A stretch of 61,881 nucleotides of DNA, filler included, from Hausera hauseri (lineage: Eukaryota): assembly GCA_046269625.1 (NCBI GenBank). It is 11 parts of 11 records of this genome, joined end to end, with 100 filler letters (N's around TTAATTAATTAA, not from the genome) between each part and the next. Parts side by side here need not be neighbours in the genome. Positions count along the whole stretch, not along the records: positions 55,923 to 61,881 come from JBJURY010162754.1; 10 more parts are not named here. One strand, written 5' to 3'. Below, piece after piece: positions 18,976-61,881 of this stretch (within the stretch, counting starts at the first letter, position 1; every line of letters starts with the position of its first letter). The notes beneath the pieces were generated by a model. The model ran no database searches. It was not told the origin of the DNA and was given only the letters and a program-made list of their open reading frames with translations. The position numbers and the translations under genes are program-made.

Positions 18976-21108
18976 TTGATTATGTTTTACCGATGCACAA
19001 AGGTTGAATTGAAATCGCTGAAACAGGTTCCGAAATTCATTTGCGTGAAATTCGTTGTTTTTCTGCCTTTCTGGCAGTCCATTGTTTTTACTATTCTTTC
19101 ATGGACCAAAGTCATTGATAAAGTTGAAGCATGGGAACTTTATAAATCCGAAGAAATATCTTCTAGATTCAAAAATTTTTTTATTTGTATAGAAATGTTC
19201 TTCGCAGCAATTGCTCATCACTTTTCTTTTTTCGTTCATCCCTACCAAAGAAATAATGAATACGGTCAACAACTATGTTGTTATTCTTGTCTGGCCATCT
19301 GTGACGTCTCAGATGTTAAAAGAGACTTGTTCTGTTTTTGTGGTTCCACAAACTGTCGCGGTTTTTCCGAATTTACAAAGTTAGTGCCATCGGATCTATT
19401 TAAAGTGTTCATCTCTCCAACGAATAGTCCCACGAACTTTATTGTGGAACATCACATCACTTTACCATCCGCTGACGCCTTCCTATCGACTACGGAAGTT
19501 CCACCTTCAGACGAAAAAGTAATATCGTTCAACGAGAAACAGAGTGTGGACGTTATAGTCAACTCTGAATCCGCTATTATTGCAATGCAACCACCGATTG
19601 ACAACATGTGCATCGACGATGAGTTGTCGAAAAGCTGTGAGCACGAGAATTTCTGTTTCCGATGTTTTGATGGTGGCGATTTGACCCACTGCAAAAAAAA
19701 CGAATGTCCGAAAACATATCAAATTTCATTTCTCGGATTTCGTAGGGCACCTACCGGCACCTGGTTCTGTATGAGGCACTTCTGTGATGTGTGCGGTATT
19801 CCTTCGACGATGTTCTGTGTTGAAAGTCCTTGGTCCTCACGTGCGCTCCATCAAACTGATCGAATGCCACCGCTGACTACCGTTCGTGTCGTGCCGACGT
19901 GTCTTGTTAATAAGCCGACGGATATTGTTCGAAACTGGTACTGTTCTAGTAACGAAACTGATAAATTACATTACGTTAAACAAATACAGTTTCAAGGGAT
20001 TAATAAAAGTTTTATCGGACAAGGCCGATCCAGTAATTTTAAAATATACAACTTGGATACGATGAAACTAATAGACATAAAAGAAGTTGTTATCATTAAA
20101 CCTTATACTCATGACTCATTCGATTACAACATACTCTTTAATTCAAACCATTCATCATTCATCGAATATTATGGCGTTGAATCCAGTCTCAGTCAGTTTC
20201 GAATATTTACCGAACACTGCGATAGTGGTTTGCTACCCGAAATAACTATAATTGATACCCCTGATTTTATCATCAGACAACGGACAAAACAGATTCTAAA
20301 GGCGTTTGTATATTTGCATGACAATCAAATTGTTCATAGTGATATCAAGCCCGATAATATATTTTTAGTAATGGTCGAGGATACCACTATGTGCCACGCA
20401 AAACCTGGCAACTTTGGAGTTATGAAATACTTAAACAATCATATAGTTATTCTTCAGGAAATTACTAGTACTATAAGGTACATAGCTCCTGAGGTTGTAA
20501 TCGTTGATAGTGCTAAAAATGTACCGAAAACAGGATATAATCATAAAATTGACCTTAGGTCAGTGGAGTGCGTTACACTTTCCATTGTAACTGGACACAG
20601 CCCCTGGTCTGATACACAGCAAGTTATTCTTTATTATAACTTAGAATGGAACAAAAAACCAAACATATCCCAAATTAATGACAGAATGTCCAAAGAAGCT
20701 TACGATTATACTACCGGTTGTTTTGTTGTAAACGCAGACGATCGATGGGACACACTAGGTACACGGCACGACGTTATTTCTTTCATAATATTCTTATTTA
20801 TGCCCATTTCGAATAGTTCAATCCCATTGGACGTTTTCAGTAAATATACCACTAGTATTTACGCAGGCATTCATGGAATAGAAGCTGGCCAAAACTTAAG
20901 TATTACAGTTTCTGTTTGCTGCTCCAATTTTACTAAATTCATTACCGGGCAGTTTTTGCAATATCGTATTTCCTCTTTGTTTTTATCGATTCTATTCGTT
21001 TCCTTTCGTTTTGAAATTGTGAAATGCATTTGTTACCCAGCAAAGACATTCGTTAGTGACATTATTTGCAAATATTTCGACACACTTCCATCTTCGTTGC
21101 GATTCTAA
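18976..21108 (+). CDS. 710-aa chimeric ORF: TMEM184C-like C-terminal half + NSD-type post-SET and PHD-C5HCH + MAP3K4/MEKK4-like degenerate kinase; probably a non-functional mosaic
   Basis: KFICVKFVVFLPFWQ...FFICIEMFFAAIAHHFSF..PY (TMEM184); CFCGSTNCRGF and CFRCFDGGDL..C....CPKTY...W.CMRHFCDVC (NSD); YYGVE, EHCDSG, HSDIKPDNIF, GNFG, YIAPEV, VTGHSPW (kinase). TMEM184 similarity continues upstream through the stop at 18973 to about 18700. Confidence 0.8.
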   Translation: MIMFYRCTKVELKSLKQVPKFICVKFVVFLPFWQSIVFTILSWTKVIDKVEAWELYKSEEISSRFKNFFICIEMFFAAIAHHFSFFVHPYQRNNEYGQQLCCYSCLAICDVSDVKRDLFCFCGSTNCRGFSEFTKLVPSDLFKVFISPTNSPTNFIVEHHITLPSADAFLSTTEVPPSDEKVISFNEKQSVDVIVNSESAIIAMQPPIDNMCIDDELSKSCEHENFCFRCFDGGDLTHCKKNECPKTYQISFLGFRRAPTGTWFCMRHFCDVCGIPSTMFCVESPWSSRALHQTDRMPPLTTVRVVPTCLVNKPTDIVRNWYCSSNETDKLHYVKQIQFQGINKSFIGQGRSSNFKIYNLDTMKLIDIKEVVIIKPYTHDSFDYNILFNSNHSSFIEYYGVESSLSQFRIFTEHCDSGLLPEITIIDTPDFIIRQRTKQILKAFVYLHDNQIVHSDIKPDNIFLVMVEDTTMCHAKPGNFGVMKYLNNHIVILQEITSTIRYIAPEVVIVDSAKNVPKTGYNHKIDLRSVECVTLSIVTGHSPWSDTQQVILYYNLEWNKKPNISQINDRMSKEAYDYTTGCFVVNADDRWDTLGTRHDVISFIIFLFMPISNSSIPLDVFSKYTTSIYAGIHGIEAGQNLSITVSVCCSNFTKFITGQFLQYRISSLFLSILFVSFRFEIVKCICYPAKTFVSDIICKYFDTLPSSLRF

Positions 21109-27919: not shown

Positions 27920-29030
27920 TCGTTTTGTAGGATTGATAACTGATGGGAATGATTGGTTGATTGAAATTGTACCGAGAAACAATTTTTATAACAAATTCAT
28001 CAAATTGTTCTACGGAAATTGTCGTGTTGATATTCTACCAGCTTTTCTTCAAATGTTACCGGTTTTGGTTCTGATTTTTAAATACTGAGTTGTGAAAATA
28101 AAACCGTTTCTCATTTTCAGTTTCTTTTATAAACCAATGTAGAAAAGATGATTGGAAATATTCTATCGTAACGTCTTTCAATGCAATTCTGAAAAACATC
28201 TAGGTGTAATGTAGGACAAACTTTCTATAATTAATCGCATTTGTTTGTTGACATACTTGTGGAATAAATGTTCGAATCAAATTCATATTAAATACTATCG
28301 TACCGTCCTTTATTAAGTACGATCTAGTTGGACTTACACCAACAATGGATAAACCACGGTATCCACTGATAATTTCCAGTGTTTTCTTCAAACCGAGTCG
28401 AAATGTTCGAATTTTATGAACGTAATACAATCCTTTTTCTATTCTCAACTTTTTTACCAGTCTGGTAAGATAAGGAATGGGATTCCTTTTATGCAAGCGT
28501 GTTGAATGAGATTAGCAACATGACTGGATTGACGTAGAGTAGGTAGAAAATTTTCATACATGATCGTCTCGGTACTATTTAGGAAATCGGTAATATTTAT
28601 TACGAACGGTATTTTCTATGAGAATCTTGAGTTTTTGGCCAATATTTGTCATGTTGATAAGATTGTTAGAACAATCTTGTGGAAAACTCAGATCATGTAG
28701 TTTTAGACGGTTTAACAGCAAATTGCGACAGGTTAAGAAATTCACATTTCGGAAGTATAGTGCAAAATCAGAAATACTATGGATTTTGAAAACGTCATTA
28801 GTGGGAAGGAAAATTTTCCATGTCCGAGCTTCGTGTATCATGTGATTATCTTGTGCAATCTCAGAATTGTCATTGTATAAATACCGTTCGACCTCATCAT
28901 GTTCTGTCAGTATGTCCGGTTTATTTAAAACTGTCGGTTCAATCATGATTCGTGGCACGTGTTTGGGCAACGAATCCACATATAAAATCCCATCAATGTC
29001 GTACGTATATCGGTGACGCAACAGAAATAT
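27920..29030 (-). pseudogene. Degraded intronless gene of unknown function (~350 codons, includes ORFs 28575-29021 and 28200-28496)
   Basis: Consecutive same-strand frames with protein-like composition (TYDIDGILYVDSLP...). TATAAG lies upstream at 29181-29186 on the minus strand. Confidence 0.4.
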
Positions 29031-29621
29031 GGAACAAGAAAAAAAATGGTAGTAGTAAAGATGAGCGAATGTGATGGTAGATCTCCTTGTGATTGTGAGA
29101 GCTGTATGAACTCTTAACTCTTGGCAGATGATGCTATTAACTAAACTGAACAGATCAGGCTGAAGCGGGATGCAGTACCACTTATAAACTTCAGAAGTTA
29201 AATAATGTGAGCCTCGCCATCACGGTGATAATATAGCCGGGAAGGCAGAAGGTTAGTTGGATCAATAAAAAGACAATGAGACTTATACAGGTAGGCTGGC
29301 TTGGGAGGAAAGAAGGCGTGCATGTAGATAAGATGGCGGGTTGATGGATAAGTACATATATTAGTTAAGTATGTTAGGTAGGCAGGTATATAGGTAACTA
29401 GGGTAAGTGCTCGTGTTAAGCATTTAAGCATTTAGAAAAACAGGTTAAGTGAACATGCAGAAGTGATTGCTTATTTCGTAAGTGAATACTTAGGTGGAAT
29501 TGGGTAGTTGGATTGATAGGTAGTGGGGTGAGGTTGTGGGAGATGGGTACATCGGTAAGTGGGTAATCCAGGTAGATAGGCAGTAGGCAGGCAGGTATTT
29601 AAACTAGTTCTTGTTCTTGTT

Positions 29622-31231: not shown

Positions 31232-32850
31232 TGTTTCGTCACAAGGAAATTGATGAAAAGTTGAAAGACGTAAGTGTCAAGATTTTCATGATGTTATTAT
31301 TATTATTATTGTTTTTGGTGAAATAAGTTGAAAATGGGGTTGATAGAGAGAAAGAAGAGGATGTGGGAAAGGGTAAATGAAATATGTGCATTCACATTTT
31401 GCAAATAAGTATTTTTAGCAAAAGAGTGAGATTTGGAGTGTTACGTTGGCGAACATAGTCCAATCAATTTAGATCTTCATCTCCGATGAGACAGTCATTT
31501 ATTACATTTCTTGATATATTGGCTGTTGTAGTTTGTTTGTCGATGGTCTTTCGCAAAGTTCGTTAGTCTTCTGACCCTCATTTGTCCCTGGGAGTTATAT
31601 TGTAGCATGTCTGACAATGTTGTTTTCCTGTCTGCATAATGTGTATCCTATCCACTTCCATTTCCTCTTTCTGATGCTGCCAATTTTTTAATCTGATCCT
31701 GACCAATCTATCAGCTTCTGTTTGAAGGGTGTCTGGCCATTTAATACCGAGCATTTATCTTTAGTTTACAAATGTTTGTAGCTTGTGTTACACTGTCACC
31801 ATGTTCTTCCACTTTTCTGAACAATAAAAGAATACAGATTTTACATTGGAGCTAAAAATGTGAAGTTTCATTAAAAAAAAATCGCCCGTAGCATTGTGCA
31901 TGCCATAGGGGGATGAAATATTAGTGCCTTCATTTTTCTAGGATTCGGCTTTGTGAGTGGGACGCCACCAGCTTTCTTGCTGCATTTATTTCTCAGGTTT
32001 TTTTTATCCTGGTAACCATTTTAGGCCGGAATTGAATCCACGCCACTTGACTCAGCAGTCGAGTTCACTAACCACTCGGCCACCACGGACCGTATCATAA
32101 GAGGTCAGATATTGCAGTCTTTCTGTGTGTTGCTCAGTAAGATAAAGGCATGTCTTACCTTGTAAATTCTGTTTATGTCCTCTCTTGTGCATTTTGTCAA
32201 CTAATGCAGCGTTAAATTACGAGTTTTTGATTGATGATCTCTACATCGAGTGTCAGCTCTTTTGTACAAGCCCTGAGTAGACCTGTTGCAGTCCTAAGGA
32301 CTATGGAGGAAAGTGAGTTTCCCTGCTGTCCTGGAGGTGGCCCAAGGTCCTTCAGGTGGTAGTGCAGTGCTTGACATCCAAGAAGTGATCCACACTAACT
32401 GGGGACCATTCCGAGCCTCTGACTGTTAGCTGGCAGGTTTCCTTACCTTTGCCTTAAGATATGATTTTAACATGGGCAGAGAATCTTGACTGACTATGAT
32501 TCGTCAAATTATGTTTCACTGTGTATTTGGGTCGACTATGTGTCGCCACCCACAAAGCACCTCCATCTCCTATGGAGCGTGTATAATAAATGCTTAGGTT
32601 CAAAGATATTGATACCCATGGCAAACTTAAACTAATCCAAACACAAAATAGAATGATTTTATTTGCATGTATGAATGTGCGTGCATGCTATGTGCTGGAT
32701 TTTTATGTTTTTTTTTAACTAATTCCTCATTGCTGCTGTTTAACTGATTATGTCTGGATTTATTTGCAGACCTTTGAAATAGTAAACAAATATCATTTCA
32801 TTCACACACTGGCTCTGCTGGCTGTGCCGTTTGCTAGAAAACCAATTTTG
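31232..32850 (+). CDS. TMEM256: TMEM256 (DUF423) homolog, two internal exons: 31232-31269 and 32770-32850
   Basis: Both exons have polypyrimidine-TGCAG acceptors and GTAAGT/GTGAGT donors and are phase-compatible. The joined peptide xFRHKEIDEKLKD-TFEIVNKYHFIHTLALLAVPFARKPIL matches TMEM256 [26 protein letters not shown]. Confidence 0.85.
31540..32200 (-). mobile_element. RTE-clade LINE 3' remnant inside the TMEM256 intron
   Basis: Minus-strand IFSSNVKSVFFYCSEKWK and KRKWKWIGYTLCR, typical of the RTE RT C-terminus. Confidence 0.7.
31885..32091 (-). mobile_element. tRNA-derived SINE nested in the LINE remnant
   Basis: Minus-strand head GGTCCGTGGTGGCCGAGTGGTTAG (A box) ... GGATTCAATTCC (B box), followed by a non-tRNA body. 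Confidence 0.7.
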
Positions 32851-41600: not shown

Positions 41601-44600
41601 TGACCAATCAGAGGACATAATGGGACCAATAACATAACATCACGAAATGAATCAGGTAACACAACGTGACAAATCACATGACAACACGTGACTAATCACG
41701 TGATCACTTAAATAACATGACGTAATGAATCACGTGACACAACGTGATTAATCATATTACATCCCTGACCAATCATATAACATCACGTAATGAATCACGT
41801 GGCACAACGTGACCACTCACAGAACAACGCGTGGCTAATCACGTGACCAATTACATAACATCAAGTCATAAATTGTGTGACACAACGCCACCATTCAGAT
41901 GACATCGCGTGACCAATCATATAACATCAAGTAATGAATAAGGTCACACCACGTGACCACTCACGGAACATCGCGTGACTAATCACATGACCAATCACAT
42001 AATATCACGTAATGAATCACGTGACCAACGTCATCAATCACATGACATCACGTGACGAATCATGTGATCAATCATGTAGTATCACGTAAACAATCACGGA
42101 CACAACGTGACCAATAATATGCCATCACGTTTCCAATCATATAATATCGCGTAATCAATCACGTGACACAACGTGACCAATAATATGACATCACGTGACC
42201 AATTATATGACATCACGTGACGAAACACGTGACCAGTAACATAGCATCACGTAATGAATCACGTGACACAATTTGACAAATCACATGACATCATGTGACC
42301 AATCACACAACATCACATAATGAAACACGAGACACAATATGACCAATCACAGAACATCACGGGACTAATCACGTGATCAATTACATAATATCACGTAAAG
42401 AGTCACGTGACACAATGTAACCAATCACAGTACATCACGTGACTAATCACGTGACCAATCACATAACATCACGTAAAAAATCACGTGAAACAACATGACC
42501 AATCACATGGCATCACACGACTAATTACGTGACCAATCACATGACATTACGTAAAGAATCACGTGACACAACGTGACCAATCACAGGACATCAAGTAAAT
42601 AATCACGTGACCAATCATATAACATTACATATTGAGTCACGTGACACTATATGAGCACTCAGAGGACATCAGGTGATCAATGACGTGACCAATCATATAA
42701 CATGACGTAATGAATCACATGACACAACGTGACCAATCACGTGACCAATCACATAACATCAGGTAATAAATCACGTGACAAAGTGACCAATCACATGATA
42801 TCATTCGATCAATCACAGGACGTCACGTAAACAATCATCTGACATCACGTGACTAATAACGTGACCTATCACATAACACCACCTAATGAATCACGTAACA
42901 CAACGTGATCAATCACATGATATTAAGTGTCAAATCACGTGACCAATCATATAATATAAAGTAATCAATCACATGACACAACGTGACCAATCATATGACA
43001 TCACGTGACAAATCACGTGACCAGTAACATAATATAAGGTAATGAATCACATGACACAATTGGACAAATAACATGACATCACGTGACCAATCATATAACA
43101 TCACGTAATGAATCATGCGATATAACGGGACTATTCACATAACATCACGCGATCAATTACAGGACATCACGTGACTAATCACGTGACCAATCACATGACA
43201 TCACGTAATGAATAACGTGACACAACTTGACCAATCACAGGACATCACGTGGCTAATTACATGTGAAATCACATAACATCACCTAATGATTCACGTGACA
43301 CAACGTGACCAATCATATGACATCAGGAGACAAATCACATGAGCAATCACATAATATCGCGTAATGACTCACGTGACACAACGTGACCAATCACAGCATA
43401 TCACGTGTCTAAACACGTGACCAATCAAATAATATCACGTAATAAGTCGCGTGACACAACCTAACCAACCACGTGACATCACGTGTCCAGTCACATAACA
43501 TCACGTGTAAAGACACATAACATCACGAGACCAATCACATGATATCACGTGAACAATCATATATCATCACGTGAGAAATTACGTGACCAATCACATAATG
43601 TCACGTAATAAATCAGGTTACACAACGTGACCAATCACATCATATATCTTTACCAATCATGTGACCAATCCCAAAACATAACGTAACAAACCATGCGACA
43701 CAACGGGACCAATCATATGACATCACGTGACCAATGACGTGACCAATCGCATAACATCAGGTAATAAATCACGTGACAACGCAACCAATCACACAACATC
43801 ACGCGACCAATCAGAGGACATCACGTGACCAATGACACAACTTCACGTAATGATTCATGTGACAGAACATTGCCAATCACAGGTCACCATGACACGTATC
43901 ACGTGATCAATCACATAACATCACTTAATAAATCACGTGACACAACGTGACCAATAACATGACATCACGTGAATAATCACCTCACATCACAAGACCAATC
44001 ACGTGACGAATGACATAACGTCAAGTAGTCAATCACATGACACAACGTGACAAATCATATGACATCACGTGACACAACGTGACCAATCACATCATATCAC
44101 GTGTCCAATCACGTGATCAATCACGAAATATCATGTAATGAATCACGTGACACAACGGGACCAATCACATAATATCACATAATGAACCACGTGATACAAC
44201 GTAACCAATCACAGGACATCACGTGACCAATGACGTGACCATCACATAACTTCACGTAATGAATCACGTGACACAACCTAACCAATCACAGGAGGTAGCG
44301 GGACCAATCACGTGAAAAATCGCATAACATCTCGTAATGAATCACGTGACGCAACGTGACCAATCACAGGAGGTAACGGGACCAATTACGTGAAAATTCG
44401 CATAACATCTCGAAATGATTCACGTGACGCAACTTGACCAATCACAGGAGGTAGCGGGACCAATCACGTGAAAAATCGCATAACATCTCGTAATGAATCA
44501 CGTGACACAACGTGACCAATAACATAACATCACGTGACCAATCACATAAGATCATGTATTGAATCACGTGACACAACGTGACCAATCTGAGGACATCACC

Positions 44601-45608
44601 TGGACATTTATATGACATTACGTGAACAATTATATAACATCACGTGACCAATCAAATGACATCATGATACCAATCACGTGACATCACGTGGCCAACTACA
44701 TGACATTACGTGACCAATCACGTGGCCAATCACGTGATTAATCACATAACATTACGTAATGCATCATGTTACGCAACATGACCAATCAAAGAACATCACG
44801 TGACCAATCACATAACTTTACGTAATGAATCATGTGGCACAACATAACCAAGCAAAGCACATCACGTGACCAATCACATAACATCACGTAATGAATCATT
44901 TGACACAACATTACCAATCAGAAGACATCACGTGACCAATCACTTAATATCACGTGAACAATAACATGACATCACGTGACCAATCACGTAATATGATATG
45001 ACCAATCAAAGGATATCGCATGAACAATAACATAACATTACGTGACAAATCACATGACATCACGTTAGCAATAATATAATATAACAAGACCAATCTCATG
45101 ACATCATGCGGCGAATCAAGTGACATCACATGACCAATCACACAACATGACGTAGTGAATCATGTGACACAACGTGGTCAATCATAGGACATAACGGAAC
45201 GACCACGTGACCAATCACATAACATCACGTAATGAATATTGTTACACAACGTGACCAATCACATGATATCACGTAATGAATTACGTGACACAACGTGACC
45301 AATTATATGATATCACGTGACCAATCACATAACATCACGTGGTGAATTACGTGACACAACGTGACCTATCACAGGCCATCACGTGACTAATCACTTACCC
45401 TATCACATAGCATCACGTAATAAATCACGTGACACAACGTTACCAATAAGAGCACATCACGTGATTCATCACGCGATATCACGTGAACAATCTTAATACA
45501 TCACGTGACCAATCACACAGCATCACGTAGTGAATCACGTGACACAACGTTGCCAATCACAGGACATAACGGGAACAACCACGTGACCAATCACATTACA
45601 TCACGTAA
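41601..45608. repeat. 4-kb satellite of alternating 12/10-bp submonomers with a ~66-78-bp higher-order unit
   Basis: Consensus TCACGTGACCAA-TCACATAACA-TCACGTAATGAA-TCACGTGACA-CAACGTGACCAA-TCACAGGACA. Confidence 0.95.
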
Positions 45609-45915
45609 TTCACTGTTTTCGTTTTCACGATATCCTTTAATTTCAACTTTAATTCGACACTGTGGTGATTTTGGTATTATTTCTATTTCTCCTCCTATAA
45701 CATCAATAAGTCGAGCCTTTTCTCCCTGTATAAAGACCGATGTATTGAATTGCTCAAATGATGATTTTCCAATTTCCAGTTTTTCATCGACATTTTTCAA
45801 TGATNNNNNNNNNNNNNNNNNNNNNNNNNNNNNNNNNNNNNNNNNNNNTTAATTAATTAANNNNNNNNNNNNNNNNNNNNNNNNNNNNNNNNNNNNNNNN
45901 NNNNTTTCAGTCCCG

Positions 45916-50020: not shown

Positions 50021-50663
50021 TGCATTAATGACAAGTGTTGAAAATGCTTTTTACAAGTTCTCGACTTGTCGTTCGTATCAGCATTTTCATCGTTTTATCG
50101 TAAGTTACGTTGGACATTCAATTAATAGATTATAGAGCCGCTATCGAATGTCATGAATTACAAACTTCCAGTAAAACGTTTCGGAAAAACTTGGAAGAGT
50201 GAATGACATACTAATTGTGCCTGAAATATTCATGACTTATTCGTTGACTGTGAATAGCTTGGGAAAAGAAATCGAAGTGTCCTGCTTCGTCAAAAAATGA
50301 GGCAATAAGGTTCTGGTTCTCCGACCTCTGGTAGCCTTTCATGACTCTGTGGGCTTATAAATCTCATAGGATAATTGAACATTTTACTTCACCTAACTAA
50401 TTCACATGGGGTCATCAGTTATCGAGTAAACATAAAAGTTCTATTTAAGTTATCCACGAGTATAACAAATAACAAACTGTAAATATTTCATTTCGTTTTC
50501 CATTTAGTTTTGTGAGAGAATGGTTTGGATAAAATGATATACACGTNNNNNNNNNNNNNNNNNNNNNNNNNNNNNNNNNNNNNNNNNNNNTTAATTAATT
50601 AANNNNNNNNNNNNNNNNNNNNNNNNNNNNNNNNNNNNNNNNNNNNACTAACAATCACAATAA

Positions 50664-51124
50664 TTAAACACAGGTGGTTTTGTCCATATCACCAAAGCCA
50701 AATTCTTTGCGTTCATTTCGTGTTTCATTGACATAAAACAATCCCCATTGTTTTAGTGCCATTACACTGAATTCCGCCTCTTCACATCGAAGAAAAACGA
50801 TTTGCGGTATTTCACTGCCTTTCAAAAAAGCATACGGTTCACTGTATTGGTTTTCCAGCAACACCTTAATTTCGCCATGAAAGTCTGAATCAATGACACA
50901 GCTCACAACCATCAGATCGAGCTTTGCCAATCTGCTTTTCGATAAAAGTTAGCCGTAGTAACCAGGTGGAAACGCCGATGGAATTTTAGTCGTTAAGCAT
51001 TTGATGGAGCTCTTTATTATTGTCGCATTTACATTGGAAAACATATCATAGCCTGCACTGTTTGCTGTGACACGTCTCGGTACAGTAACACGTTCATCCG
51101 TTGAAATAATCTTTCATCATCCAT
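50664..51124 (-). pseudogene. dUTPase (trimeric type)
   Basis: VPRRVTANSAGYDMFS (motif 1), PPGYYG*LLSKS (motif 2), VIDSDFHGEIKVLL (motif 3), IPQIVF (motif 4), FGFG. Confidence 0.9.
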
Positions 51125-51239
51125 TATCATTATTCTTATTCCTATACCAATATTAAAATTGCACATATATTTATACCCTTTAATTGGAATCATGAAAGAA
51201 AAAAGAACAGATAACAACAACAACAATATTTATTGATAA

Positions 51240-52007
51240 TTATAATGTGCTTTAGCTACACGCCAAATCGGGCTTTTGATACCGTAGTTTTTTTCGTATC
51301 CTTGCAATTCAATGTTTAGTCTTGACTTCAAATCATTATCAGGCGTATTAGATATTAGTGACCGATAAAATCAAACAATTTAGTTTTTGTAGCTGATAAA
51401 ACTAGAGATTGCTGTTGCAAGGTCGTTTCGTTCAACTTTAAATCCATGTTTAATTGAAGTAAAACATCAGAAAGTTTATCACAATTTTCACCCAAAAGCT
51501 GTTTTACACGATAACTGTACTTGGGTGCGCACAGAGACACTGGATCGTTCAATGAAATCAGTACGGGCGTTTGCAGAAAATGCATTTCATACTTGCGAAA
51601 AATTCGTTTCGGTAAAAATGTCCGTGTTTGATGAGGCGGTTTTGATTTTCGTTTACGTATTCCAATCATTGCCACTTGCCTTTTTAACATCGGTTTTGCT
51701 GATTTCTGAGCAAGTTCCTTTTTCGTTTCCAGGCAATCGACATCATAGCCGTCCTCCAGACAATGGATATTAAAATTATCATACGGTTTTTCTAATTGTT
51801 GGACAGATTCTGTTTTCGTTTCCAGCAATTTGACATTAGAATTTTCTTTTTGTAGCCAAACAACCACGACCAATCTAAACTTTTATTATTCTCACAACCA
51901 CCATCATTGAGTAGAATCGTTTTATTGTCTTCCATGGCAGTAATATCTGAATGAGCATGGGAATGGCACTTATAGTTTGTTGTACAGAGTACATTATTTT
52001 GATTCAC
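51240..52007 (-). pseudogene. Viral accessory gene of unknown function, frameshifted (includes ORF 51355-51873)
   Basis: Consecutive same-strand frames between the TBP-like gene and dUTPase; basic NLS-like patch RKRKSK. Confidence 0.45.
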
Positions 52008-52015
52008 TAAAACAT

Positions 52016-52452
52016 TTATGTGGTTTTAATTTGATTAATAATCGGTTCATAGTCCACTGTCCAAATACCGAGTACAGCAATTTTTCCACTGCTAAACACA
52101 CTGACACAAAGTGGGCGAAACGATGTCAGTCTCAGTGCACGAAACATTTTAGTTTCATATGTATATTCAGTGGCCATTGTTAATTTCTACAGATTGACTG
52201 ATGGGCAGTCTAACTGAGTCTTTACCGTTATTGATTGAATTTTTCAATGAAAATTCCGAATGGCAATAGTTTACTGTTGTCATCTGTGGTTGGTTTGCGA
52301 CAACCCATAATACGACGCGTTTCCGACTAAAATATGATACATGTAAAATCTTGTGGACACTTGAGGATATACTCCCTTGGCTTTCATTGATTAAAAGGTT
52401 GTGTATTAATACACTCGGTAACACGTCCGCAATAGTTAATATTAGCTAACAT
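52016..52452 (-). pseudogene. TATA-binding protein (TBP)-like gene, ~145 codons, with 3 stops and 1 frameshift
   Basis: Repeat 1: MLANINY...FTCIIF*SETRRIMGCRK. Repeat 2: IQSITVKTQLDCPSVNL*KL...YTYETKMFRALRLTSFRPLCVSVFSSGKIAVLGI. Compare TBP IQNMVGSCDV.FPIRLEGL...[34 protein letters not shown]. Confidence 0.75.
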
Positions 52453-52539
52453 TATGGAAACAGTGTTTATACTACAGCTATTTATATGTATGTAACATGA
52501 TTATAAACAAATCATGTGAGGAAAGGTTGTATTATTTAG
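52453..52539. promoter_or_regulatory. Putative bidirectional TATA promoter between the TBP-like gene and the ATPase
   Basis: TATAAATA on the minus strand (~52479-52486) and TATAAA on the plus strand (52502-52507), in an 87-bp gap between divergent ATGs. Confidence 0.55.
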
Positions 52540-53171
52540 ATGAAGCTGCAGAATAATACAATTTTTCAGATTGTAGGCCCCAGTGGAAGTGGCAAAACAA
52601 ACTTTGTGTGTAAACTATTGCAGAACTACCGTGACATGTTCCGTTCACCGCGGTACAATCACATTTACTGGCATCAGGTGTTGATGGTGATGGTGAGTCC
52701 GGTTTGACACATTAGGAATTTTGTCAATTAAAATCGATAACGGTAGTTGATAGGTTTGATAAGAATTGGTCTGAAAGATTACGCAATGGTGACGTTATTG
52801 TCATTGACGATTTATTTCACGAAGCAACGAAACAAACTGATTTCAACTATCTATTCATGAAGATTGCATGACACCGTGGTGTAGCGGTTATTTTCATTAC
52901 CAAAAACATGCTGCATTAAGGAGGACAGCATCGAACACGAATTTCCAACGTACATTGTTTGATACTGTTCAGAAATCCCCGTCATTAAACTGACATTGAT
53001 TATGTTGCACGACAAGCATTTCCTCATAACCAAGACTACTTGATAGATGCATATTATGATGCTACAAGTTGGTATCTATTTATTGACTTTACACAACAGT
53101 GTCCCGATTACATGCATATACGAACAGATATTTTCAATCAGAAAGGTGTAAATGTCTATAAACAAATTTGA
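52540..53171 (+). pseudogene. A32/FtsK-like genome packaging ATPase
   Basis: Walker A IVGPSGSGKTNFV; Walker B VIVIDDL; LFMKIA*HRGVAVIFITKN; LFRNPR; YLFIDF...HIRTDIF. Confidence 0.9.
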
Positions 53172-53412
53172 AAATCGACACGATAGTAGTAGTAAAATGA
53201 AGAATTTCCGAAAAACATTTGTTAAATACAAACCAATCAAACAGGCATCCAAGACGAAACGTGCATCAAATACATCAAAATGCAACGCTACAGGTAAGCG
53301 ATTGATCAATTCAGAGCTTCGAACAACAATAATAGCAGCCAGACGCAAATTACCTTCAAAATGGCAACGATCAAAACAACTACGTCAACGTATCAATATT
53401 CATTGCAGAAAC

Positions 53413-53742
53413 ATGCGTTTCAAACGTAGTCAACCGTACTTTACTGCTTTGCTTAAAGCACCTTCAAGCCATAAGCGAAACATGCTACGATCATTCCTTC
53501 AATTTGCAGTAGATGATTTAATAAAGATTTTATACAATATTTTTGTGGGTTACGTTGACACTGGTAGTAGAAAGCGGAATTTACTGAAATATCGACGACG
53601 ACTAATTTCGCTTGCCAACACTCGCAGTAAACGACTGAAACGATAGGTCATGTATCAGCAGCATGGAGGATTCTTTGGTGCAATTGTACCGGTTGTTGTG
53701 TCATTACTGGGCGGTCTCATTGGTGGCAACAGTTTAATATTA
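53413..53742 (+). pseudogene. Conserved Polinton small basic virion protein with C-terminal QxGG/F site and hydrophobic tail
   Basis: MRFKRSQPYFTALLKA...ILYNIFVG...LLKYRRRLISLA...*VMYQQHGGFFGAIVPVVVSLLGGLIGG. Confidence 0.7.
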
Positions 53743-53959
53743 ACAATGACGATAAGTATATGATGATTTAGCAATATGAATGTATGGTTTTCACGCTTTT
53801 GTCCCACTTTACCGAATATTTCATTAACGTTTCTTTCTACTTGCTGCAATGCAAACACAAATGACAATACCGACGGCAACGATGGACATATGGTTCGATC
53901 CCCGTCATCCCGTTGGGTATACTGGTGTCGACACTCTTGCAAAGACTGTGTAATAGACT

Positions 53960-54903
53960 AGACGACAAAATTAGAATTGGTTCGGAAAACAGTTAGCATA
54001 CAGCCTAAACAAACCGATAAGAAAACGGTCTCCAACTCGTCCATACGGTACTATATGCGTACATAATGTATGGAAATTGTATCTGATAGAAATTGTTCAG
54101 TACGCCAGCATTAACGATGGGTATTGGTACATTCTGACTTGTATTGATGTGTTTAGTCGCTTTGTACGTGCCATTGCTGTGAAATCCAAATCCGGTAAAG
54201 AAATTGCCGACGCTGTTTACACATTAATACAACAACAATTACCACCGAAACATGTACAAACGGATATGGGTAAAGAATTTTACAATTCCCATGTTGCATT
54301 GGTTTTTAGCCGGTTCATTGTAGACCACTACTCAGAGTTTTCGCAATACAATGCTGCACTCTTTGAACGATTTAATCGAAAATTGTGCGATTGACTAACC
54401 AAATTCTTTACGAAGCAAGGCAACAAACTCTGGGTAGATGTGTCACCGGATATTATCCTTGCATACAATTATTCAACACATCGTAACATTATTGATTACG
54501 CCCGGTGAATGTAGTCGACGATTTGAATATGTGGCTTTATCGAAACCGATGAAGACCAATTAAACGTCCCAAGTACAAAATCGGTGATTATGTACGTATT
54601 TCGAAGCTGAGCATGACACCATTCATTAAGAATTTCAATCAGAACTGGAGCGATGATGTTTTTCGAATTTCTGCAATCAACACAAAACAAACACATGTTA
54701 TATACGTTTTAGAAGATGAAAATGGTGAAGAAATATGTGGCAAATTCTACGAACAGGAAGTACATGTACTACCGGAAAAACCTGATGTGTATCGCATTCA
54801 GGAAATTCTACGTTCACGCGGCAAAGGTTCTAATAAACAGTATCTCGTCAAGTGGCACAGATACACTACACCGAGTTGGGTATTTGCATCGCAGATTGAA
54901 TGA
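53960..54903 (+). pseudogene. Retroviral-like (rve) integrase with C-terminal chromodomain
   Basis: YILTCIDVFSRF, VQTDMGKEFYN, ERFNRKL, YNYSTH, KYKIGDYVRIS, NWSDDVF, GKFYEQE, QYLVKWHRY..PSWV. Confidence 0.92.
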
Positions 54904-55822
54904 TGAGCAGTTATTTGGTACTTGATAGTAACAGATTATCACAACGTAACAACAACAACAATAACAAAACCGCTGAACGGTTTACCATGGCGTTGGACCA
55001 GCCGCTCGACTTACGCCAGGGTGCCTGGGAAGTGGCTTTGGTGGAATTCACGTTTACATTTTCAACAATTATAATACGTGAGAAAAGTTGTATTTGCTAT
55101 ATTCTACTAGCAAAATCTCCTGCTTCAAGTCGTTTGCAGTTAATCCGAGACTCTAAGCGAATTAGTGTTGGTCATTATACACGGGAATATTTGCCGGTTT
55201 ATATTTTTAGTTCAAAGAATAGTTTTGCTTTAAAAAACAAACATCATATTGAATTGTAATCTAAATCATTAGCTGACACTCATACATGGGGGTTTCAATC
55301 TGTCGATGTGCACTCGAAAGTTCTACAGCTTGGTGTACATGCTGTAATTGATAAAAATTTGAATTTTTCCAATAACGTTAAAACCTATATTACAGTTAAC
55401 TGGACAAAGACTGAATTAGTTTTTACTCGATTTCTGCAGGATTAAATTTTCTTACGGAAATTGAAACAAAATTGTGCGCAGCTATCAAGGCCGTAGCTAA
55501 TTTGGCTCTAAAGACATTTGAATTAAACTCTGATGGTCGTATTTCATTTACACTACATGACAATATTACATATTTTGTCTTTGATGAACTATTGGCACGG
55601 AATATGGGTTTTACGAAACTCGAATTCGGTCAAAATAGCGGCGGACGACCCATTGTTGCTAAATACAAACCATGTCTCTACGGAGCATTTTATCGAATCA
55701 ATATTTTAACGGATCTAACCGAACCTGTTTATGTCGATGGAGACCGTAAACAACTATTGCCTTCTATTGGACTGGATTCGGACACGTACAAAACGCCAAG
55801 CGAAACTGGTCATGTAAATATC
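54900..55822 (+). pseudogene. Polinton minor capsid protein (penton), truncated by contig end
   Basis: YLVLDSN...FTMALDQPLDL..GAWEVALVEF; LARNMGF; INILTDLTEPVYVDGDRKQLL. Confidence 0.8.
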
Positions 55823-56269
55823 NNNNNNNNNNNNNNNNNNNNNNNNNNNNNNNNNNNNNNNNNNNNTTAATTAATTAANNNNNNNNNNNNNNNNNNNNNN
55901 NNNNNNNNNNNNNNNNNNNNNNTAAATTTAAAAATGTTTCTAATTTAAAGTTAGAATTTCTGTTCTCAATTATATCCTCACAATCATAGCTAAAGCCTTC
56001 ATCCTCAGATGGGTCAGCCGTTTAGGAACACCAAAACATCTCATTTCCGATCAAGAACGACAATTTGAATCCTCACTCTTTAAAGCGCTAGCCGCTCGTT
56101 TGAGTATGGAGTATAGATTTTTATATTGAAGTCTTTTCAATTTAATAAAGTGCATTAATGATATGAAAATTTCAAATTCTTATAAATGGTTTGAAACTAA
56201 TTATTTTAATAAATTATTTGGCACAGAGATATAATTAAAAACAGCAAAATTAAAATACATAATAATTTA

Positions 56270-58516
56270 TTACTTACAGTTTGACTTTCTTGTGTACTTT
56301 CTTTTAGTCAAAACTGTATTATCATAATCACCATTTTCTTCATGTTTGCGTTTCTGATTTGCTTTACCTTCTCTATACAGTTTACACAGTTTACTGGACT
56401 TTGAATGACCTTCCATATTACAGACCGAGCATTTCTTTTTCGACGAAAGTGATGGAATTGATGGAGTATTCGGTGAATTGGTTTGTGGTTCACAGTTCTG
56501 TCTCTTTGCCTTTGCCAATTTTCTTCTATCATCAGCATTTAACAAAGAATTGCCACATAATCTTTGTACATATCTTGTTCCTCGTGATAGACTTTGAAGA
56601 TATTCATACACGGTATCATCGAACTTAATCTGTTCTTCCTTGATAGTATATGACCCGTCTGGAAGTCTTACTCGTCTATAGATATTCAAATAAGATGTTC
56701 TTTGTCCTTTGAGCAGATCAACAACACTGTTTTGACTGGATTTTATTATCGGATTGTTCTGACGAAATTTTGTTTTGGTTCCAGATACATGCAAAGTCGA
56801 AGTATTTTCTTCGTGATAAACTTGAGTTTCTTCATCATATCTACTCTCTGTTTTGCTAAGATAATTGTGTTGACTCATAAATATATCTTGACATCTTTTA
56901 GAATACAGCTTTTGCAGAATTCGATTTTTTTCTGTACAATCTGTAGATTTTGTTTCTCGAGCATACATAATATGTTTATCATCACCGTTTACAGCAGCTA
57001 AAGATGTCAACATGTGACAAAGAGACCATCTACGCATATCTTTGGAACTTCTGATATCTGCCTTCATGTCAATTAAAAGTGATTTAAACTCGGCAACAGT
57101 GATTGTTCTTAAATCGCGTTGCTTTCCACTTAATTGTTTTGGTACGAGTTTATCAATACATGTGAACGAATAGCCTTGATGCTCTTTAATACTTTGAAGA
57201 TTATTTAGATCAAAATATCCTTTACCCATTATTCCATTTAAATATCCATTTGAAATCGTCCATGGTGACATTGCATCTTTATAATCGTCATGTTTTTTGA
57301 ACTTATTTGTTTGATTTGCTCCATCGACGTGAACATTATAATCCATCAGATATGACAAAATTGAATTAAACATCATGAAATCCTCCATAGACAATGTACA
57401 GTCTAACAAACATTTTACTTCCTCATTTTTAAACTTAAATGACTCAGTATTTGGATCCAATGTTAAAAATTTCTTTATCTGACTGTCTAAATCGAGGAAT
57501 GGCACAGTTGATATGATTTTATCAAGAATATCTTTCGTAATATATCCGACAGCTTTAATATGTCGATAGATCATCTTGAGTAAAATTTGATGAAAATATC
57601 CAGACGTTGGATGAGGTATCCTTTTTAGTGGCATTTGCCTCGATCCAACGAGTACTTCTTTGACTTTTCTAATTTCAATTTTTCCGTTTCCACGAATCGT
57701 TAAAAGAAAATCTTGAGGAAGCAATTGATGTTTGTAAATTGGAGTTCTAAAGAATTCATTTTCTAAACAGGTTTGAAAATCTGGACCAACAACACCCTTT
57801 TTCTGATTTTGCAAATAACCCAGAAACAAACGACGACAACCAATATCCTGAAGTCTGTTGGAAGTTTTTAGCTTTGTTACATCTGTCTTTGAATTAAAAT
57901 ATGTTACAAGGGCTGACGACAAAGTAGGAAACATTGGAAACGGAGATCGCTGTTCAGATGACTCAAAAAGAAAAACTTTTTTCATATTGAGATATTGGTC
58001 GGCATTGGTTTTGATTTTAAATGATTTATTCTTTTTTATATTTTGAATCCAAGAAACTGCGTTTGGATTAACAATCGTATTTAATGAGCAATAAATTGAT
58101 TTCATTTGTTCGAAATCTTGATTTTGTTCTACAATAACTGATTCTATATCTTGTAAAGGATCTCTAATGTGTTTTCTTTTAAACCTTAATCGTTTATTAA
58201 CAGATGGTGAAATCTCTTCTAATAATTTCGTAATATTTTCAGACTTCTTTTCAATTGTAAATGGATTAATTATAATATCGTCTTCCCACAAGTAATTTTG
58301 AAATGTTTGCATTTCGTTCATTACAATCTGGTTGACATCATCCATTTTGATCTCCTCATTAATAAAAGAACTTATTTCACCCATTTTTTCAAGTTCCTTT
58401 TCAATGATATCCTTTTCCCAAGGATAATATTTCAAATTAGTCCCAATTGAAATATCGCTAATCGTATTTTGTATTTGAGAATTATTAGTAAAAAATACTT
58501 TTGAATTCATTTTCAC
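56270..58516 (-). CDS. TAF1: Highly divergent, intronless TFIID subunit 1-like protein (DUF3591 core + zinc knuckle; no bromodomains or obvious TAND)
   Basis: LFESSEQ, LENEFFRTPIYKH....DFLL, QMPLKRIPHP, SPWTIS...GKGYF, DLRTIT...RW...YAR, YSKRCQDIFMSQHNYLS, LNIYR, KCSVCNMEGHSKSSKLCKLY, all in TAF1 order. The 748-codon frame is open; the first ATG is at about 58510. Confidence 0.85.
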   Translation of the reverse strand: MKMNSKVFFTNNSQIQNTISDISIGTNLKYYPWEKDIIEKELEKMGEISSFINEEIKMDDVNQIVMNEMQTFQNYLWEDDIIINPFTIEKKSENITKLLEEISPSVNKRLRFKRKHIRDPLQDIESVIVEQNQDFEQMKSIYCSLNTIVNPNAVSWIQNIKKNKSFKIKTNADQYLNMKKVFLFESSEQRSPFPMFPTLSSALVTYFNSKTDVTKLKTSNRLQDIGCRRLFLGYLQNQKKGVVGPDFQTCLENEFFRTPIYKHQLLPQDFLLTIRGNGKIEIRKVKEVLVGSRQMPLKRIPHPTSGYFHQILLKMIYRHIKAVGYITKDILDKIISTVPFLDLDSQIKKFLTLDPNTESFKFKNEEVKCLLDCTLSMEDFMMFNSILSYLMDYNVHVDGANQTNKFKKHDDYKDAMSPWTISNGYLNGIMGKGYFDLNNLQSIKEHQGYSFTCIDKLVPKQLSGKQRDLRTITVAEFKSLLIDMKADIRSSKDMRRWSLCHMLTSLAAVNGDDKHIMYARETKSTDCTEKNRILQKLYSKRCQDIFMSQHNYLSKTESRYDEETQVYHEENTSTLHVSGTKTKFRQNNPIIKSSQNSVVDLLKGQRTSYLNIYRRVRLPDGSYTIKEEQIKFDDTVYEYLQSLSRGTRYVQRLCGNSLLNADDRRKLAKAKRQNCEPQTNSPNTPSIPSLSSKKKCSVCNMEGHSKSSKLCKLYREGKANQKRKHEENGDYDNTVLTKRKYTRKSNCK

Positions 58517-59079
58517 ATGTCTTTTAATGAAAGACCTTCATGAAATGATGACAATTTTAATTGATAAAAATGTTTAAAGTGTTAATATTGGATAAATAAA
58601 TAATTTTTCACCTTCCTTTTGTCGATTTATTTTATTCAAATAAGAATGAACATAATTACTCCCAACACTTCAATTATAAAAATATACAATAAAATTGGAT
58701 AATTCGAAACCACGGATTTTAAATTTAAACCAATCTTATAAAAATCGAAGCGAAAAGTTGTAAAAATTATAAAAATTTGATTTTTCAAAGAAAAATTGTG
58801 TTTTAGAACCATTACATTTAAAATTAGAAATATGTCTGATGTTACAAGTTAAACCATTCTATAATCCTGTTGATCAAATTTCTATTTATATATAAAACAT
58901 GTGCGTGCACTTATTATTCATGTGTGTACAATGGTGCAAAGTTGATGAAATGTGTTAATTGAAACATTTATAAAAAACAGCATTTATCTGTAGTTCAGAA
59001 AGTAAAAATAATTTATCTAATGAAGGAGATACAGTTCGATGCAGAATTTAATTCTGCACAAAATTAAACAATAAAAATT

Positions 59080-59360
59080 AGTAGGGGAAAAATGAGAAGT
59101 CTGCCTCACCCCACGAGGGGTGTGCGAATCGATAAATCGATTTGCACGTGTCAATCTATAGTGCTCATTGTGCACTATCGAAGTGGAGTGTGCAAGGCGA
59201 CGGTGCCGCTACGCACCGTTGCTATGCACATTTTTGCACATTTCACAAATCGATCGCTGCACAGTGCTGTATAGATCGAATCGATCGGGCGAAAGTGCTA
59301 ATCGATAGTGCACATCAGTGCACATCGACTAGTGCAAAGTGCAGCTGTGCAGCAGATTTG
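59080..59360. repeat. Palindrome/hairpin-rich block, candidate terminal region of the PolB-encoding element
   Basis: Starts AGTAG. Hairpins at 59107-59122, 59122-59147 and 59188-59231; perfect 12-bp inverted repeat GTGCACTATCGA (59170-59181) / TCGATAGTGCAC (59302-59313). Confidence 0.55.
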
Positions 59361-59364
59361 CAAG

Positions 59365-59920
59365 TGCGCAAAAAGCAACAATATAGGATTTCCGATAAAC
59401 CCAATATTGATGATTAGGGCAGAACACCGGGTGAAATCCAAAGCATACATGATGGACTGTGTGAATGCGCAGTTAGAGTTTAAATATATTGATTGGTTTT
59501 CGAATAATTGTCAACTGAGACAGACTTCCCATAGGCCTTTCCGCTATAAAATGAAAATCAATAAAATCAATATGTCACATAAACTGGTGGGTGCAGTACT
59601 TGATGTACTATCGTTCAGTGAAATATTCGAGTCAAATGTGCTCTTGGATACGGTTGCTGAGGCACTTTTTCACTTTTCACACATTTGTCAGTGTGCATCG
59701 CAGGATTTATGGAATCGATTGGGATCAAGTGCAGGTAGATAGAGCACATCGAGATGCACCTTGATATATACTATGCAGTGCAAAAATCAATAATATCGGT
59801 TTTTCGATATTTCCAATATTGATGATTAGGACATGTGACGGGTGCATTCGAACACAAACATGGTGCAGTATATGAATGTGCATTTAGAATTTAAATTTTT
59901 CGATCAGTTATCGAATAATA
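59365..59920 (+). repeat. Diverged ~140-bp direct repeat (59365-59510 and 59778-59920)
   Basis: Shared GCAAAAA.CAA.AATAT, CCAATATTGATGATTAGG, TGAATG.GCA.TTAGA.TTTAAAT, TCGAATAAT. Confidence 0.8.
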
Positions 59921-60354
59921 TCGATCCAAAATGCAACTGCAACACAGAATGTCAAGTCAGATATTCGAAATTCGAATATTTTCGAGCTAGAATATCGAAA
60001 TTCGAACTATTCGAAAAATCTAAGAGCAGGAATCGATTCCACATATACGAAAACCTCCCAAGAAATAAATATTATTGCACGAAAATATACTATATAGATA
60101 TAAAATTAATATTTCGAATTAAGCAAAATGTGTATTTAAAGTACAGTGAAGGGGAAATCAATAAATCTAATAGCCGGCGGGATAGGAAATCATATATGTT
60201 GAATTGGAATATAATTTTAGATATTCGAATTCGAGCTAACAAGTCGAATATTTAGCTCTTCTAACTCGAATATTCGGTCAAGCATGCATTATTCGAAGAA
60301 TCTGATCAATCCAATCGAATCCCCATATACGAAAACCTTAAATTTGGTGCAACT

Positions 60355-61881
60355 ATGTATTTAATTTAATTGATGCTTTAAAACAAAAGTGCATTAAAAC
60401 CGATCAATAATCGTGGCAGTGCATGGTGATATGGCTATATTTTTCATTATTTCCAAAATCACTTCAACGAATGTTGAGTTTTCTAATTGTACTCCTCAGA
60501 TAGTTGGTTGATTTTTAGATGTGCAAACTTTACAGAGAATGCTTGGCTCAAATTCATGAGCCTGAAAATTGCCACAGTATTATGAAAAAGTACCTTAGTC
60601 ATCAGTATTATATATCACAGCGTTCAGTATTATATATGCCCTACATGTGAGGTAGTGTGCCAAATCAATTATCAAGACTTTTACAATGTCCATAAACAGC
60701 ACTTGATTTTTTTTACCAAGTCGAAAAAACAAATATTCAGTACCAATATGCCAATAATGACTTCCGTGCCAAAGGAAAATCAAAGATGCAGTTCCTATCT
60801 GTATTGCGCATGTGCAATACAAAACCCGCAGAATTGTCACAATACCGTGAGGACATATTATGGACACAAATTCAATAGGATCATCTGTTATATCTGCACT
60901 GGATGTGGGACTGTATGTAATTTAGAATACATACAGTTTTATGAAGATCACAAACATCATTTGACTGCCTTCACATCAAAGTCAAAGAAGATCATCTTTA
61001 TTGAACATAAGCTAGTTGCGCAGCTTGCAGTACCACGGTCTGTAGTACCACAGCCAGCAGTACCACAGCCTGAAGTACAGCCAGATGCAGGACTAAAACG
61101 CGCATCGGACACATCAGGCACATTAAGCGTACCAGCTTTACCAAAGAGTCAAAGACAGCGGCCAGTTGATGCTGCAGCATTAAAGAAAAAATGCCTCAAA
61201 TATGCCATTGATTCAACTGGTCAAACAACCATCAAGGAGTTACTGGAGTATACAGAGGAAGAAACAGAGGGAATTCTCCAGGACAACATAGCTAAACTCA
61301 AGGCTATTAAGGCTCATATGAATTGTGAAGCCACATACGTCAATATTGATGGCGAAGAGTCCAAAAGTGCCTTCAAGACCAGAAATAGGCCTATTTTTAA
61401 AGCCACCAATATAGTAGAATGGCTGCATGAAGTGCATGCAAAGCTTACCCGTGAAGACGATGAGAGCCATAAATGGAAAAATTGAGATATGTAAGCGATG
61501 TATGTCTCATTTTAGCAGTGATACTGCAGTGGACAAGCCTGTAGACCACAAGATTTACTGCAACAATAATTACTGTGTAAGGCCAGAATTTCCCTAGGAG
61601 AACTATATTGAATTCAAGGAGTTAGAGAAGAAGATGACGATCACAATAGTTATCTATTGCGACTTTGAAGCTATTCTCCGGCCAGTTCACAGCCTCACTC
61701 CCAGTCCTCAACACAGCAGCACAACGGCATACCAATACCATATTTTATATATGCCAAAGGACTGGACAGTGAACCATTTCTATTCAGAGGTACAGGTGCA
61801 GCAACACATTTCATGAAACGACTTGAAGACATGGCTCATAAGCTTGAAAACATGCTTCAGCAGTATAAGGATAATATGAGC
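60355..61881 (+). pseudogene. Second copy of the Maverick PolB 5' region (paralog of 12301-14232) with a ~480-bp internal deletion
   Basis: Colinear with contig 3. At about 61482 the sequence jumps from the equivalent of ~13357 to ~13841; IYCDFEAIL is present. Confidence 0.92.

What the first reader, a model, noticed from the sequence alone, without database searches (positions are those of the whole stretch)
56270..61881. Intact, intronless, stripped-down TAF1 beside a Maverick PolB: possible TFIID-type cargo or a second genome
Seen: this 748-codon frame is the only long, coherent ORF still intact in a window of pseudogenes. It keeps the TAF1 core and zinc knuckle, lacks the bromodomains and an obvious TBP-binding TAND, and lies divergent from a PolB copy about 2 kb away. 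It contrasts with the conserved, long-intron TMEM256 gene. Inference: it is (a) element cargo that, with the TBP-like gene and ELOF1 fragment, would suggest a mobile basal-transcription kit, (b) a fast-evolving retrogene, or (c) the true TAF1 of a co-sequenced reduced parasite. TBP, TAF1 and ELOF1 are on different contigs, so the link between them is hypothesis only. The hairpin block at 59080 may place TAF1 outside the element.
Basis: partly seen in the sequence, partly recalled or inferred. Interest (0 to 1): 0.7.

Follow-up and report, generated by a model that had tools for sequence, protein, structure and literature searches.

The report
Highly divergent TAF1 beside a Maverick
An unidentified animal carries an intact but extremely altered copy of TAF1, the scaffold of the machine that starts gene reading; it sits next to a virus-like jumping element but is likely an ordinary chromosomal gene, likely a specialised second TAF1 of an old, undescribed subfamily, not cargo of the element.

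Summary
The ORF is real: 746 codons, 58510-56270 (-). It keeps the TAF1 core (Pfam DUF3591 42.5 bits against 226-480 in 13 ordinary TAF1s; predicted fold Z 18 to human TAF1) and an exact Cx2Cx4Hx6C knuckle, and has no TAND.

Cargo is not supported. In run X1 one near-identical contig covers each part of the ORF (depth 37-80), while the hairpin/PolB part is covered by many divergent contigs (32,000-553,000). A Gypsy fragment flanks the other side. The ELOF1 piece is a dead fragment behind a Gypsy element, so the 'kit' has no link.

New here: the gene forms a long-stemmed clade (100/100) with four unnamed metagenome proteins. Two likely keep an ancestral TAF1 intron; the closest relative (L001) is a frameshifted pseudogene. 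The stop lies on the only GTAAGT in 3.2 kb, so the ORF may be one giant exon, and loss of bromodomains is not established.

Best reading (0.55): an old, fast-evolving second TAF1 of a repeat-rich animal genome. Rival (0.27): the sole TAF1 of a fast-evolving lineage. Host identity, a canonical second TAF1 and expression were not testable. The scan's earlier notes held no look-alike.

The parts
56270..58510 (-). TAF1-like ORF, 746 aa (P0001); possibly one large exon
56831..58135 (-). TAF1 core, residues 126-560 (TAF7-binding barrel, winged helix, following helices)
   Evidence: AlphaFold2 model aligns to 4RGW chain A at Z 18.0, rmsd 5.2, 327 residues. The model used an alignment of TAF1 homologues, so this is not independent of the sequence match.
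57395..57601 (-). predicted winged helix, residues about 304-372
   Evidence: matches other winged-helix proteins at Z 4-6
56384..56431 (-). zinc knuckle Cx2Cx4Hx6C (C694, C697, H702, C709) with two lysines between His and the last Cys
   Evidence: motif defined in PMC5854669 (passages)
56272..56277 (-). GTAAGT, a candidate splice donor overlapping the last codons and the stop
   Evidence: only occurrence on this strand in 55923-59100; 35 of 2778 TAA triplets in the window have one adjacent
55986..56114 (+). Gypsy integrase-core fragment behind the gene
   Evidence: 22 of 43 residues identical to the contig 2 integrase, E 4e-16 pairwise; bin depth 58,149
56116..58683 (.). low-copy island: three X1 contigs with 2, 1 and 0 differences, depth 61, 51, 37
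   Evidence: tables 2 and 8
58684..59116 (.). moderately repeated spacer (depth about 700-1700), including AGTAG at 59080
   Evidence: tables 2 and 4
59080..60340 (.). hairpin-rich block with a 411-base duplication (59368-59508 / 59780-59919); very high-copy from about 59120-59270 onward; likely the Maverick end region or a separate repeat
60364..61881 (+). broken 5' part of a Maverick/Polinton PolB locus (open frame 60586-61485, then stops and frame changes)
   Evidence: 80% identical to 12305-14253; contig 3 continues into PolB core; frames

Best explanation
This is an intact, low-copy, very divergent TAF1-family gene, likely chromosomal and likely a second, specialised TAF1 from an old duplication, beside which a Maverick has likely inserted by chance. 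Shown: the frame, the TAF1 core and knuckle, the low-copy island, and the clade with four other sequences. Inferred mechanism: the protein would bind a TAF7 through its barrel and grip promoter DNA with the winged helix and knuckle, replacing ordinary TAF1 in a variant TFIID. Without a TAND it would not mask TBP; if the stop is the true end, it would not read acetylated histones either. A germ-line role is a guess by analogy with TAF1L and fly testis TAFs. The ancestor of this gene and L001 likely lost the internal introns, by retroposition or intron loss.
For: Divergence far beyond ordinary TAF1s: 42.5-59.7 bits for the 4 family members scanned against 226-480 for 13 of 13 others scanned, flatworms and nematodes included (13 of the 33 other hits). 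Selection on the core: 60 of 138 columns conserved in ordinary TAF1s are kept; pN 0.40 against pS 0.65 to L001 over 264 codons (near saturation); 2 of 3 differences to run X1 are silent. Clade of P0001, P0002, P0038, P0003, P0004 at 100/100 with a stem of about 2 changes per site; P0001 + L001 at 100/93. L001 has a stop at a Trp position and about three frameshifts, and a second record (P0038) ends at the same break, so a family member was dispensable. P0003 and P0004 stop aligning at the same Val codon as three exon-derived ordinary TAF1 fragments (P0026, P0032, P0036), which points to a shared ancestral intron and a cellular origin (inferred from protein ends, no DNA seen). One X1 contig per place over the ORF, against 42-128 contigs per listed variant over the repeat.
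Against: No canonical TAF1 of the same genome could be sought: no assembly is held, and the window has no second copy. The tree does not place the clade: with flatworms p-AU 0.37, outside the animal TAF1s p-AU 0.15. L001 could be a dead duplicate of a sole TAF1. The GTAAGT at the stop, plus a weak likeness of the tail to the linker before bromodomain 1 (38 of 1000 shuffles end-anchored, but 167 of 1000 by HMM), allows a longer spliced protein. X1 depth over the ORF is about 3 times that on the TMEM256 contig, which could mean a few copies or another genome; summed contig depth is no copy number. The model is modest (mean pLDDT 57.6). TAF7 binding, DNA binding and expression are untested.
Confidence: 0.55

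Rival explanations
1. It is the sole, true TAF1 of a fast-evolving, poorly sampled animal (or other eukaryote) in a mixed assembly, possibly with bromodomain exons on another contig.
For: All relatives are unnamed metagenome proteins; placement outside the animal TAF1s is not rejected; candidate donor at the stop; earlier unchecked notes describe flatworm-like, fish-like and phage DNA in this assembly; bromodomain-less sole TAF1s exist in fungi (PMC6672047 section 5).
Against: The closest relative is a pseudogene; divergence is far greater than in the parasite TAF1s scanned (Cichlidogyrus 401 bits, Paragonimus 289, Trichinella 470); the neighbouring repeat family is very high-copy, unlike a reduced genome.
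Confidence: 0.27
2. It is cargo of a rare Maverick subfamily or another large DNA element that uses it to steer host TFIID.
For: Within 2 kb of PolB; intron-free core; a decayed intron-free relative; Mavericks carry host-derived cargo in nematodes (10.1101/2022.07.12.499685, passages); TBP-like genes occur in MELD viruses (PMC8502044 section 10); the terminus is not fixed; one unexplained X1 joint links 55982 to 60145 (table 5c).
Against: Lowest PolB bin is 525 times the ORF depth; the hairpin block lies between ORF and PolB; the far flank is Gypsy; likely spliced relatives; ELOF1 and TBP pieces are broken and on other contigs.
Confidence: 0.08
3. The gene is real but its join to the Maverick is an assembly chimera through repeats, so the neighbourhood means nothing.
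For: X1 contigs link the ORF only as far as 58683; repeats follow; short-contig assembly.
Against: No frame damage or visible seam; depth rises in steps through a mid-copy zone.
Confidence: 0.07
4. It is a recent Gypsy-made retrocopy of the ordinary TAF1, like the captured mRNA pieces elsewhere in this assembly.
For: Gypsy fragment next to it; ELOF1 and mosaic pieces beside Gypsy elements in this window.
Against: Those pieces are broken and close to ordinary genes; this one is whole and shares derived motifs with distant species.
Confidence: 0.03

Closest known systems
Metazoan TAF1 (human TAF1-TAF7, PDB 4RGW; PMC6672047 section 5 and passages read; PMC5854669 passages read)
   Same: Collinear DUF3591 core, winged helix, following helices and Cx2Cx4Hx6C knuckle with its two basic positions.
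   Different: About 20-26% identity in alignments; no TAND; no bromodomain in the ORF; linkers much shorter; no intron in 2.2 kb.
Primate TAF1L retrogene (PMC6672047 section 5)
   Same: A retroposed second TAF1, expressed in testis: the model for a specialised duplicate.
   Different: TAF1L is young and clusters with TAF1; this lineage has a very long stem and likely spliced members. That paper names TAF1L as the TAF1 duplication in its species set.
Marsupial 'TAF1-like' proteins XP_044524443.1 and XP_043849865.1
   Same: Named TAF1-like; core plus knuckle with no bromodomain or TAND hit.
   Different: Core still scores 444-448 bits; they do not group with this gene.
Drosophila testis TAFs (search listing and abstract starts only: PMC11535153, PMC5879934)
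   Same: Testis-specific TAF paralogs that drive a germ-line programme.
   Different: As I recall, they include no TAF1 paralog; no germ-line evidence exists here.
Maverick cargo genes of nematodes (10.1101/2022.07.12.499685, passages) and TBP-like genes of MELD viruses (PMC8502044, passages and section 10)
   Same: Host-type gene near Maverick core genes.
   Different: Known cargo lies inside the terminal repeat and recurs with the element; this ORF is low-copy and on the far side of the hairpin block.

Membership tests
TAF1 family | DUF3591 core above Pfam cut-off | tested here: met
   42.5 bits, cut-off 25
TAF1 family | TAF1 core fold with winged helix | tested here: met
   Foldseek E 1e-16 to 4e-11, all 15 matches under 0.001 counted, the 13 listed being TFIID entries; Z 18.0, next unrelated 6.3; predicted model
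TAF1 family | Cx2Cx4Hx6C zinc knuckle | tested here: met
   C694, C697, H702, C709; Pfam model not hit
Canonical metazoan TAF1 | [quoted passage not shown] | tested here: not met
   No PF09247 hit; hit in 3 of 13 others only, so Pfam is insensitive. The alignment starts past that region and L001 starts at the same place. An upstream exon is not excluded.
Canonical metazoan TAF1 | Two bromodomains | tested here: inconclusive
   None in the ORF, but candidate donor at the stop and contig end 347 bases later
Canonical metazoan TAF1 | Binds TAF7 and assembles into TFIID | not testable with these tools
   No TAF7 of this organism in hand
TAF1 paralog (TAF1L-like) | A canonical TAF1 in the same genome | not testable with these tools
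   No assembly held
TAF1 paralog (TAF1L-like) | Loss of parental introns | tested here: inconclusive
   Frame runs through the position (residue 311/312) where five other proteins end as if at an intron; a last intron may remain
Maverick cargo | Inside terminal inverted repeats with target-site duplication | tested here: inconclusive
   Only one end region on the contig; no second arm in the window
Maverick cargo | Multiplied with the element family | tested here: not met
   Depth 37-80 and one contig per place against 32,107-552,848 and many contigs
Reduced-parasite genome | Compact, repeat-poor neighbourhood | tested here: not met
   Gypsy fragment on one side, very high-copy repeat on the other; holds only if the contig is correctly joined

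The most novel reading that the evidence does not exclude
An invertebrate lineage has kept, for a very long time, a second TAF1 stripped of both its TBP brake and its histone-acetyl readers: the core of an alternative TFIID that starts transcription by DNA contact alone, gained and lost among species.
Probability: 0.3. Interest if true: 0.65.

Novelty: new variant of a known kind. Interest (0 to 1): 0.4.

Why it matters
The TFIID survey I read (PMC6672047, section 5) says metazoan TAF1 has two bromodomains and names TAF1L as its duplication. A second, reader-less TAF1 subfamily would be a natural minimal TAF1: it would show which parts promoter recognition needs, and extend tissue-specific TFIID variants to their scaffold. 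If instead it is a sole TAF1, it marks an unsampled, very fast-evolving lineage. The mobile transcription kit, the most striking idea, has no support. Eight paper searches (listings read) showed no title or abstract start on such a paralog or on TAF1 in a Maverick; subscription journals and supplements were not seen.

Tried and rejected
Second-genome test: run X2 (another organism label) holds near-identical pieces of the ORF (260 bases with 1 difference and 1 gap; 303 bases with 4) and the repeat family. On the TMEM256 contig only 5 X2 records were laid, short matches, and four X1 repeat bins of 1,240-37,104 read 0, 0, 0 and 11. This hints at two genomes, but a blank in filtered contigs proves nothing and the two calls used different thresholds (80 and 95), so I do not count it as evidence. 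No RNA holder listed. Word-index protein searches found nothing for P0001 or alignment A2 and only P0004 for P0003. IMG/VR: no TAF1 relative, none for a PolB piece. Metagenome scan: 1 locus of 155 candidates. Protein atlas: no answer for P0001 or P0002; uninformative for P0003. Rfam: one chance-level hit. No second terminal arm, and no match of the spacer or hairpin block elsewhere in the window above shuffles. Dinucleotide signatures did not bin the contigs. Tiny introns as the cause of L001's breaks: none evident at the first break on reading the sequence. AU tests with plants and nematodes did not finish and were not rerun. The second tree used 23 of 44 rows and cut the read-through tails of P0003 and P0004; the first dropped 2 short rows. 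TBP piece against PDB sequences: no hit. No complex prediction was sent: no partner in hand. The organism was not identified.
Full report
Setting. The window is 11 contigs joined by spacers; the finding lies on the last, 55923-61881. No whole assembly is held, so linkage and copy questions rest on two public runs kept as contigs.

The ORF. ATG 58510 to stop 56270 on the minus strand gives 746 residues; 200 shuffles gave at most 169. It hits DUF3591 at 42.5 bits and human TAF1 chains. All 36 hits among 1.84 billion representatives had E under 0.001; the named ones with a function are TAF1s. An AlphaFold2 model (mean pLDDT 57.6, much of the core 70-90) matches TFIID structures and aligns to 4RGW at Z 18.0 over residues 126-560. 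The knuckle is Cx2Cx4Hx6C with lysines at the two basic positions; PMC5854669 (passages) shows this motif and two such residues are needed for promoter binding. Of 138 columns conserved in 16 ordinary TAF1s, 60 are kept. It is not the only long frame: 18976-21108 is a 710-codon mosaic.

The ends. The alignment begins past the TAND region, and L001 starts about 30 codons before the same motif, so the short N-terminus looks like a family trait. The C-terminus is open: the last codons overlap the only GTAAGT on that strand in 3.2 kb (background 35 of 2778 TAA), no long frame follows any of 9 nearby acceptors, and the contig ends 347 bases on. The tail resembles the linker before bromodomain 1 only weakly (38 of 1000 shuffles and 3 of 700 own windows when end-anchored; 167 of 1000 by HMM). 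An AATAAA also overlaps the stop. Both a true end and a giant exon remain possible.

Cargo? In run X1 three contigs with 0-2 differences cover 56116-58683 at depth 37-61. From 59107 on, bins read 32,107-552,848 and listed variants sit in 42-128 contigs beyond 59268, bar two rows at 19-20. The lowest PolB bin is 525 times the ORF median. Summed contig depth is no copy number, but a gap of this size with one sequence against very many shows the ORF was not multiplied with the family. Depth is about 700 at 59113-59116 and 930,000 at 59268, so the AGTAG at 59080 (a Polinton-like start, recalled) is not the edge of the high-copy part. The block folds strongly (z -7.1) and holds a 411-base duplication. 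Behind the gene lies a Gypsy integrase fragment. Two IMG/VR scans found no TAF1 relative; four partial Maverick-like loci had neither TAF1 nor the TBP piece. The ELOF1 piece has two stops and lies behind a Gypsy integrase. The TBP piece is broken, E 0.0026, and TBP-like genes are already noted in MELD viruses. The kit has no physical or evolutionary link.

The family. P0002 (39%), P0038, P0003 and P0004, all unnamed, share derived motifs with the ORF and form a clade at 100/100 on a stem of about 2 changes per site (3.9). The DNA of P0002 (L001) follows the query to residue 615 without introns but with a stop at a Trp position and about three frameshifts. P0003 and P0004 stop aligning at the Val codon where three exon fragments of ordinary TAF1 also run into unrelated sequence; I infer a shared ancestral intron that the query and L001 lack. 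Family members score 42-60 bits on DUF3591, the 13 others scanned 226-480. The clade cannot be placed: with flatworms p-AU 0.37, outside animal TAF1s 0.15.

Which genome? X1 depth is about 61 over the ORF and about 18 in 24 of 30 low bins of the TMEM256 contig. X2, under another organism label, holds near-identical ORF pieces and the repeat. Earlier unchecked notes report flatworm-like, fish-like and phage DNA in this assembly. A mixed assembly is therefore plausible but not shown, and the contrast with TMEM256 should carry no weight. The contig's repeat load does not fit a reduced genome.

Reading. Most likely an old, fast-evolving second TAF1 (0.55) that would bind TAF7, hold promoter DNA by winged helix and knuckle, and lack the TBP brake and perhaps acetyl reading; every functional step is inferred. 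The sole-TAF1 rival stands at 0.27, cargo 0.08, chimeric join 0.07, recent retrocopy 0.03. It works like TAF1 and belongs to the family; it is not a canonical metazoan TAF1 as far as this contig shows. Interest 0.4: a real, apparently undescribed subfamily, but with host, paralog status and 3' end open.

Noticed in passing
window 18976-21108 (+): 710-codon stop-free mosaic frame: TMEM184-type C-terminus, an NSD-like Cys-rich stretch (my recall) and a kinase domain, directly ahead of a Gypsy gag-like frame; fits the host-mRNA capture noted elsewhere in this assembly.
   Followed up: partly
window 11097-11318 (+): ELOF1 fragment with two stops (Pfam E 7e-11) about 1.3 kb behind a Gypsy integrase.
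   Followed up: partly
window 50647-55822: Broken Maverick module: dUTPase, TBP-like piece (52019-52186, -), A32-type ATPase, integrase, chromodomain. The TBP-like piece was not seen in four partial IMG/VR relatives.
   Followed up: partly
window 60364-61881 and 12305-17027: Both PolB copies are CpG-poor (o/e 0.45-0.57) while the TAF1 ORF (0.93) and the hairpin block (1.32) are not; unexplained.
   Followed up: no
window 55982 and 60145: One X1 contig joins these two places (depth 14.8); no sequence likeness found between them; unexplained.
   Followed up: partly
window 41601-45804: Whole contig is a satellite of 11/22/78-base units rich in TCACGTGA and CCAAT.
   Followed up: no
window 32770-32850 (+): TMEM256 exon (DUF423, E 2e-4) in a CpG-poor contig (o/e 0.35); X1 differs from the window at about 1% of sites there, against 3 sites in the TAF1 ORF.
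   Followed up: partly
L001 1-1991: Intron-free, frameshifted pseudogene of the same TAF1 subfamily in another organism, 28% GC.
   Followed up: yes
P0006, P0022: Marsupial TAF1-like proteins without bromodomain hits form their own clade; possibly another reader-less TAF1 duplicate, or incomplete gene models.
   Followed up: no
window 28575-29219 (-) and 17400-18291 (+): Open frames of 214, 124 and 185 codons with no Pfam hit.
   Followed up: no
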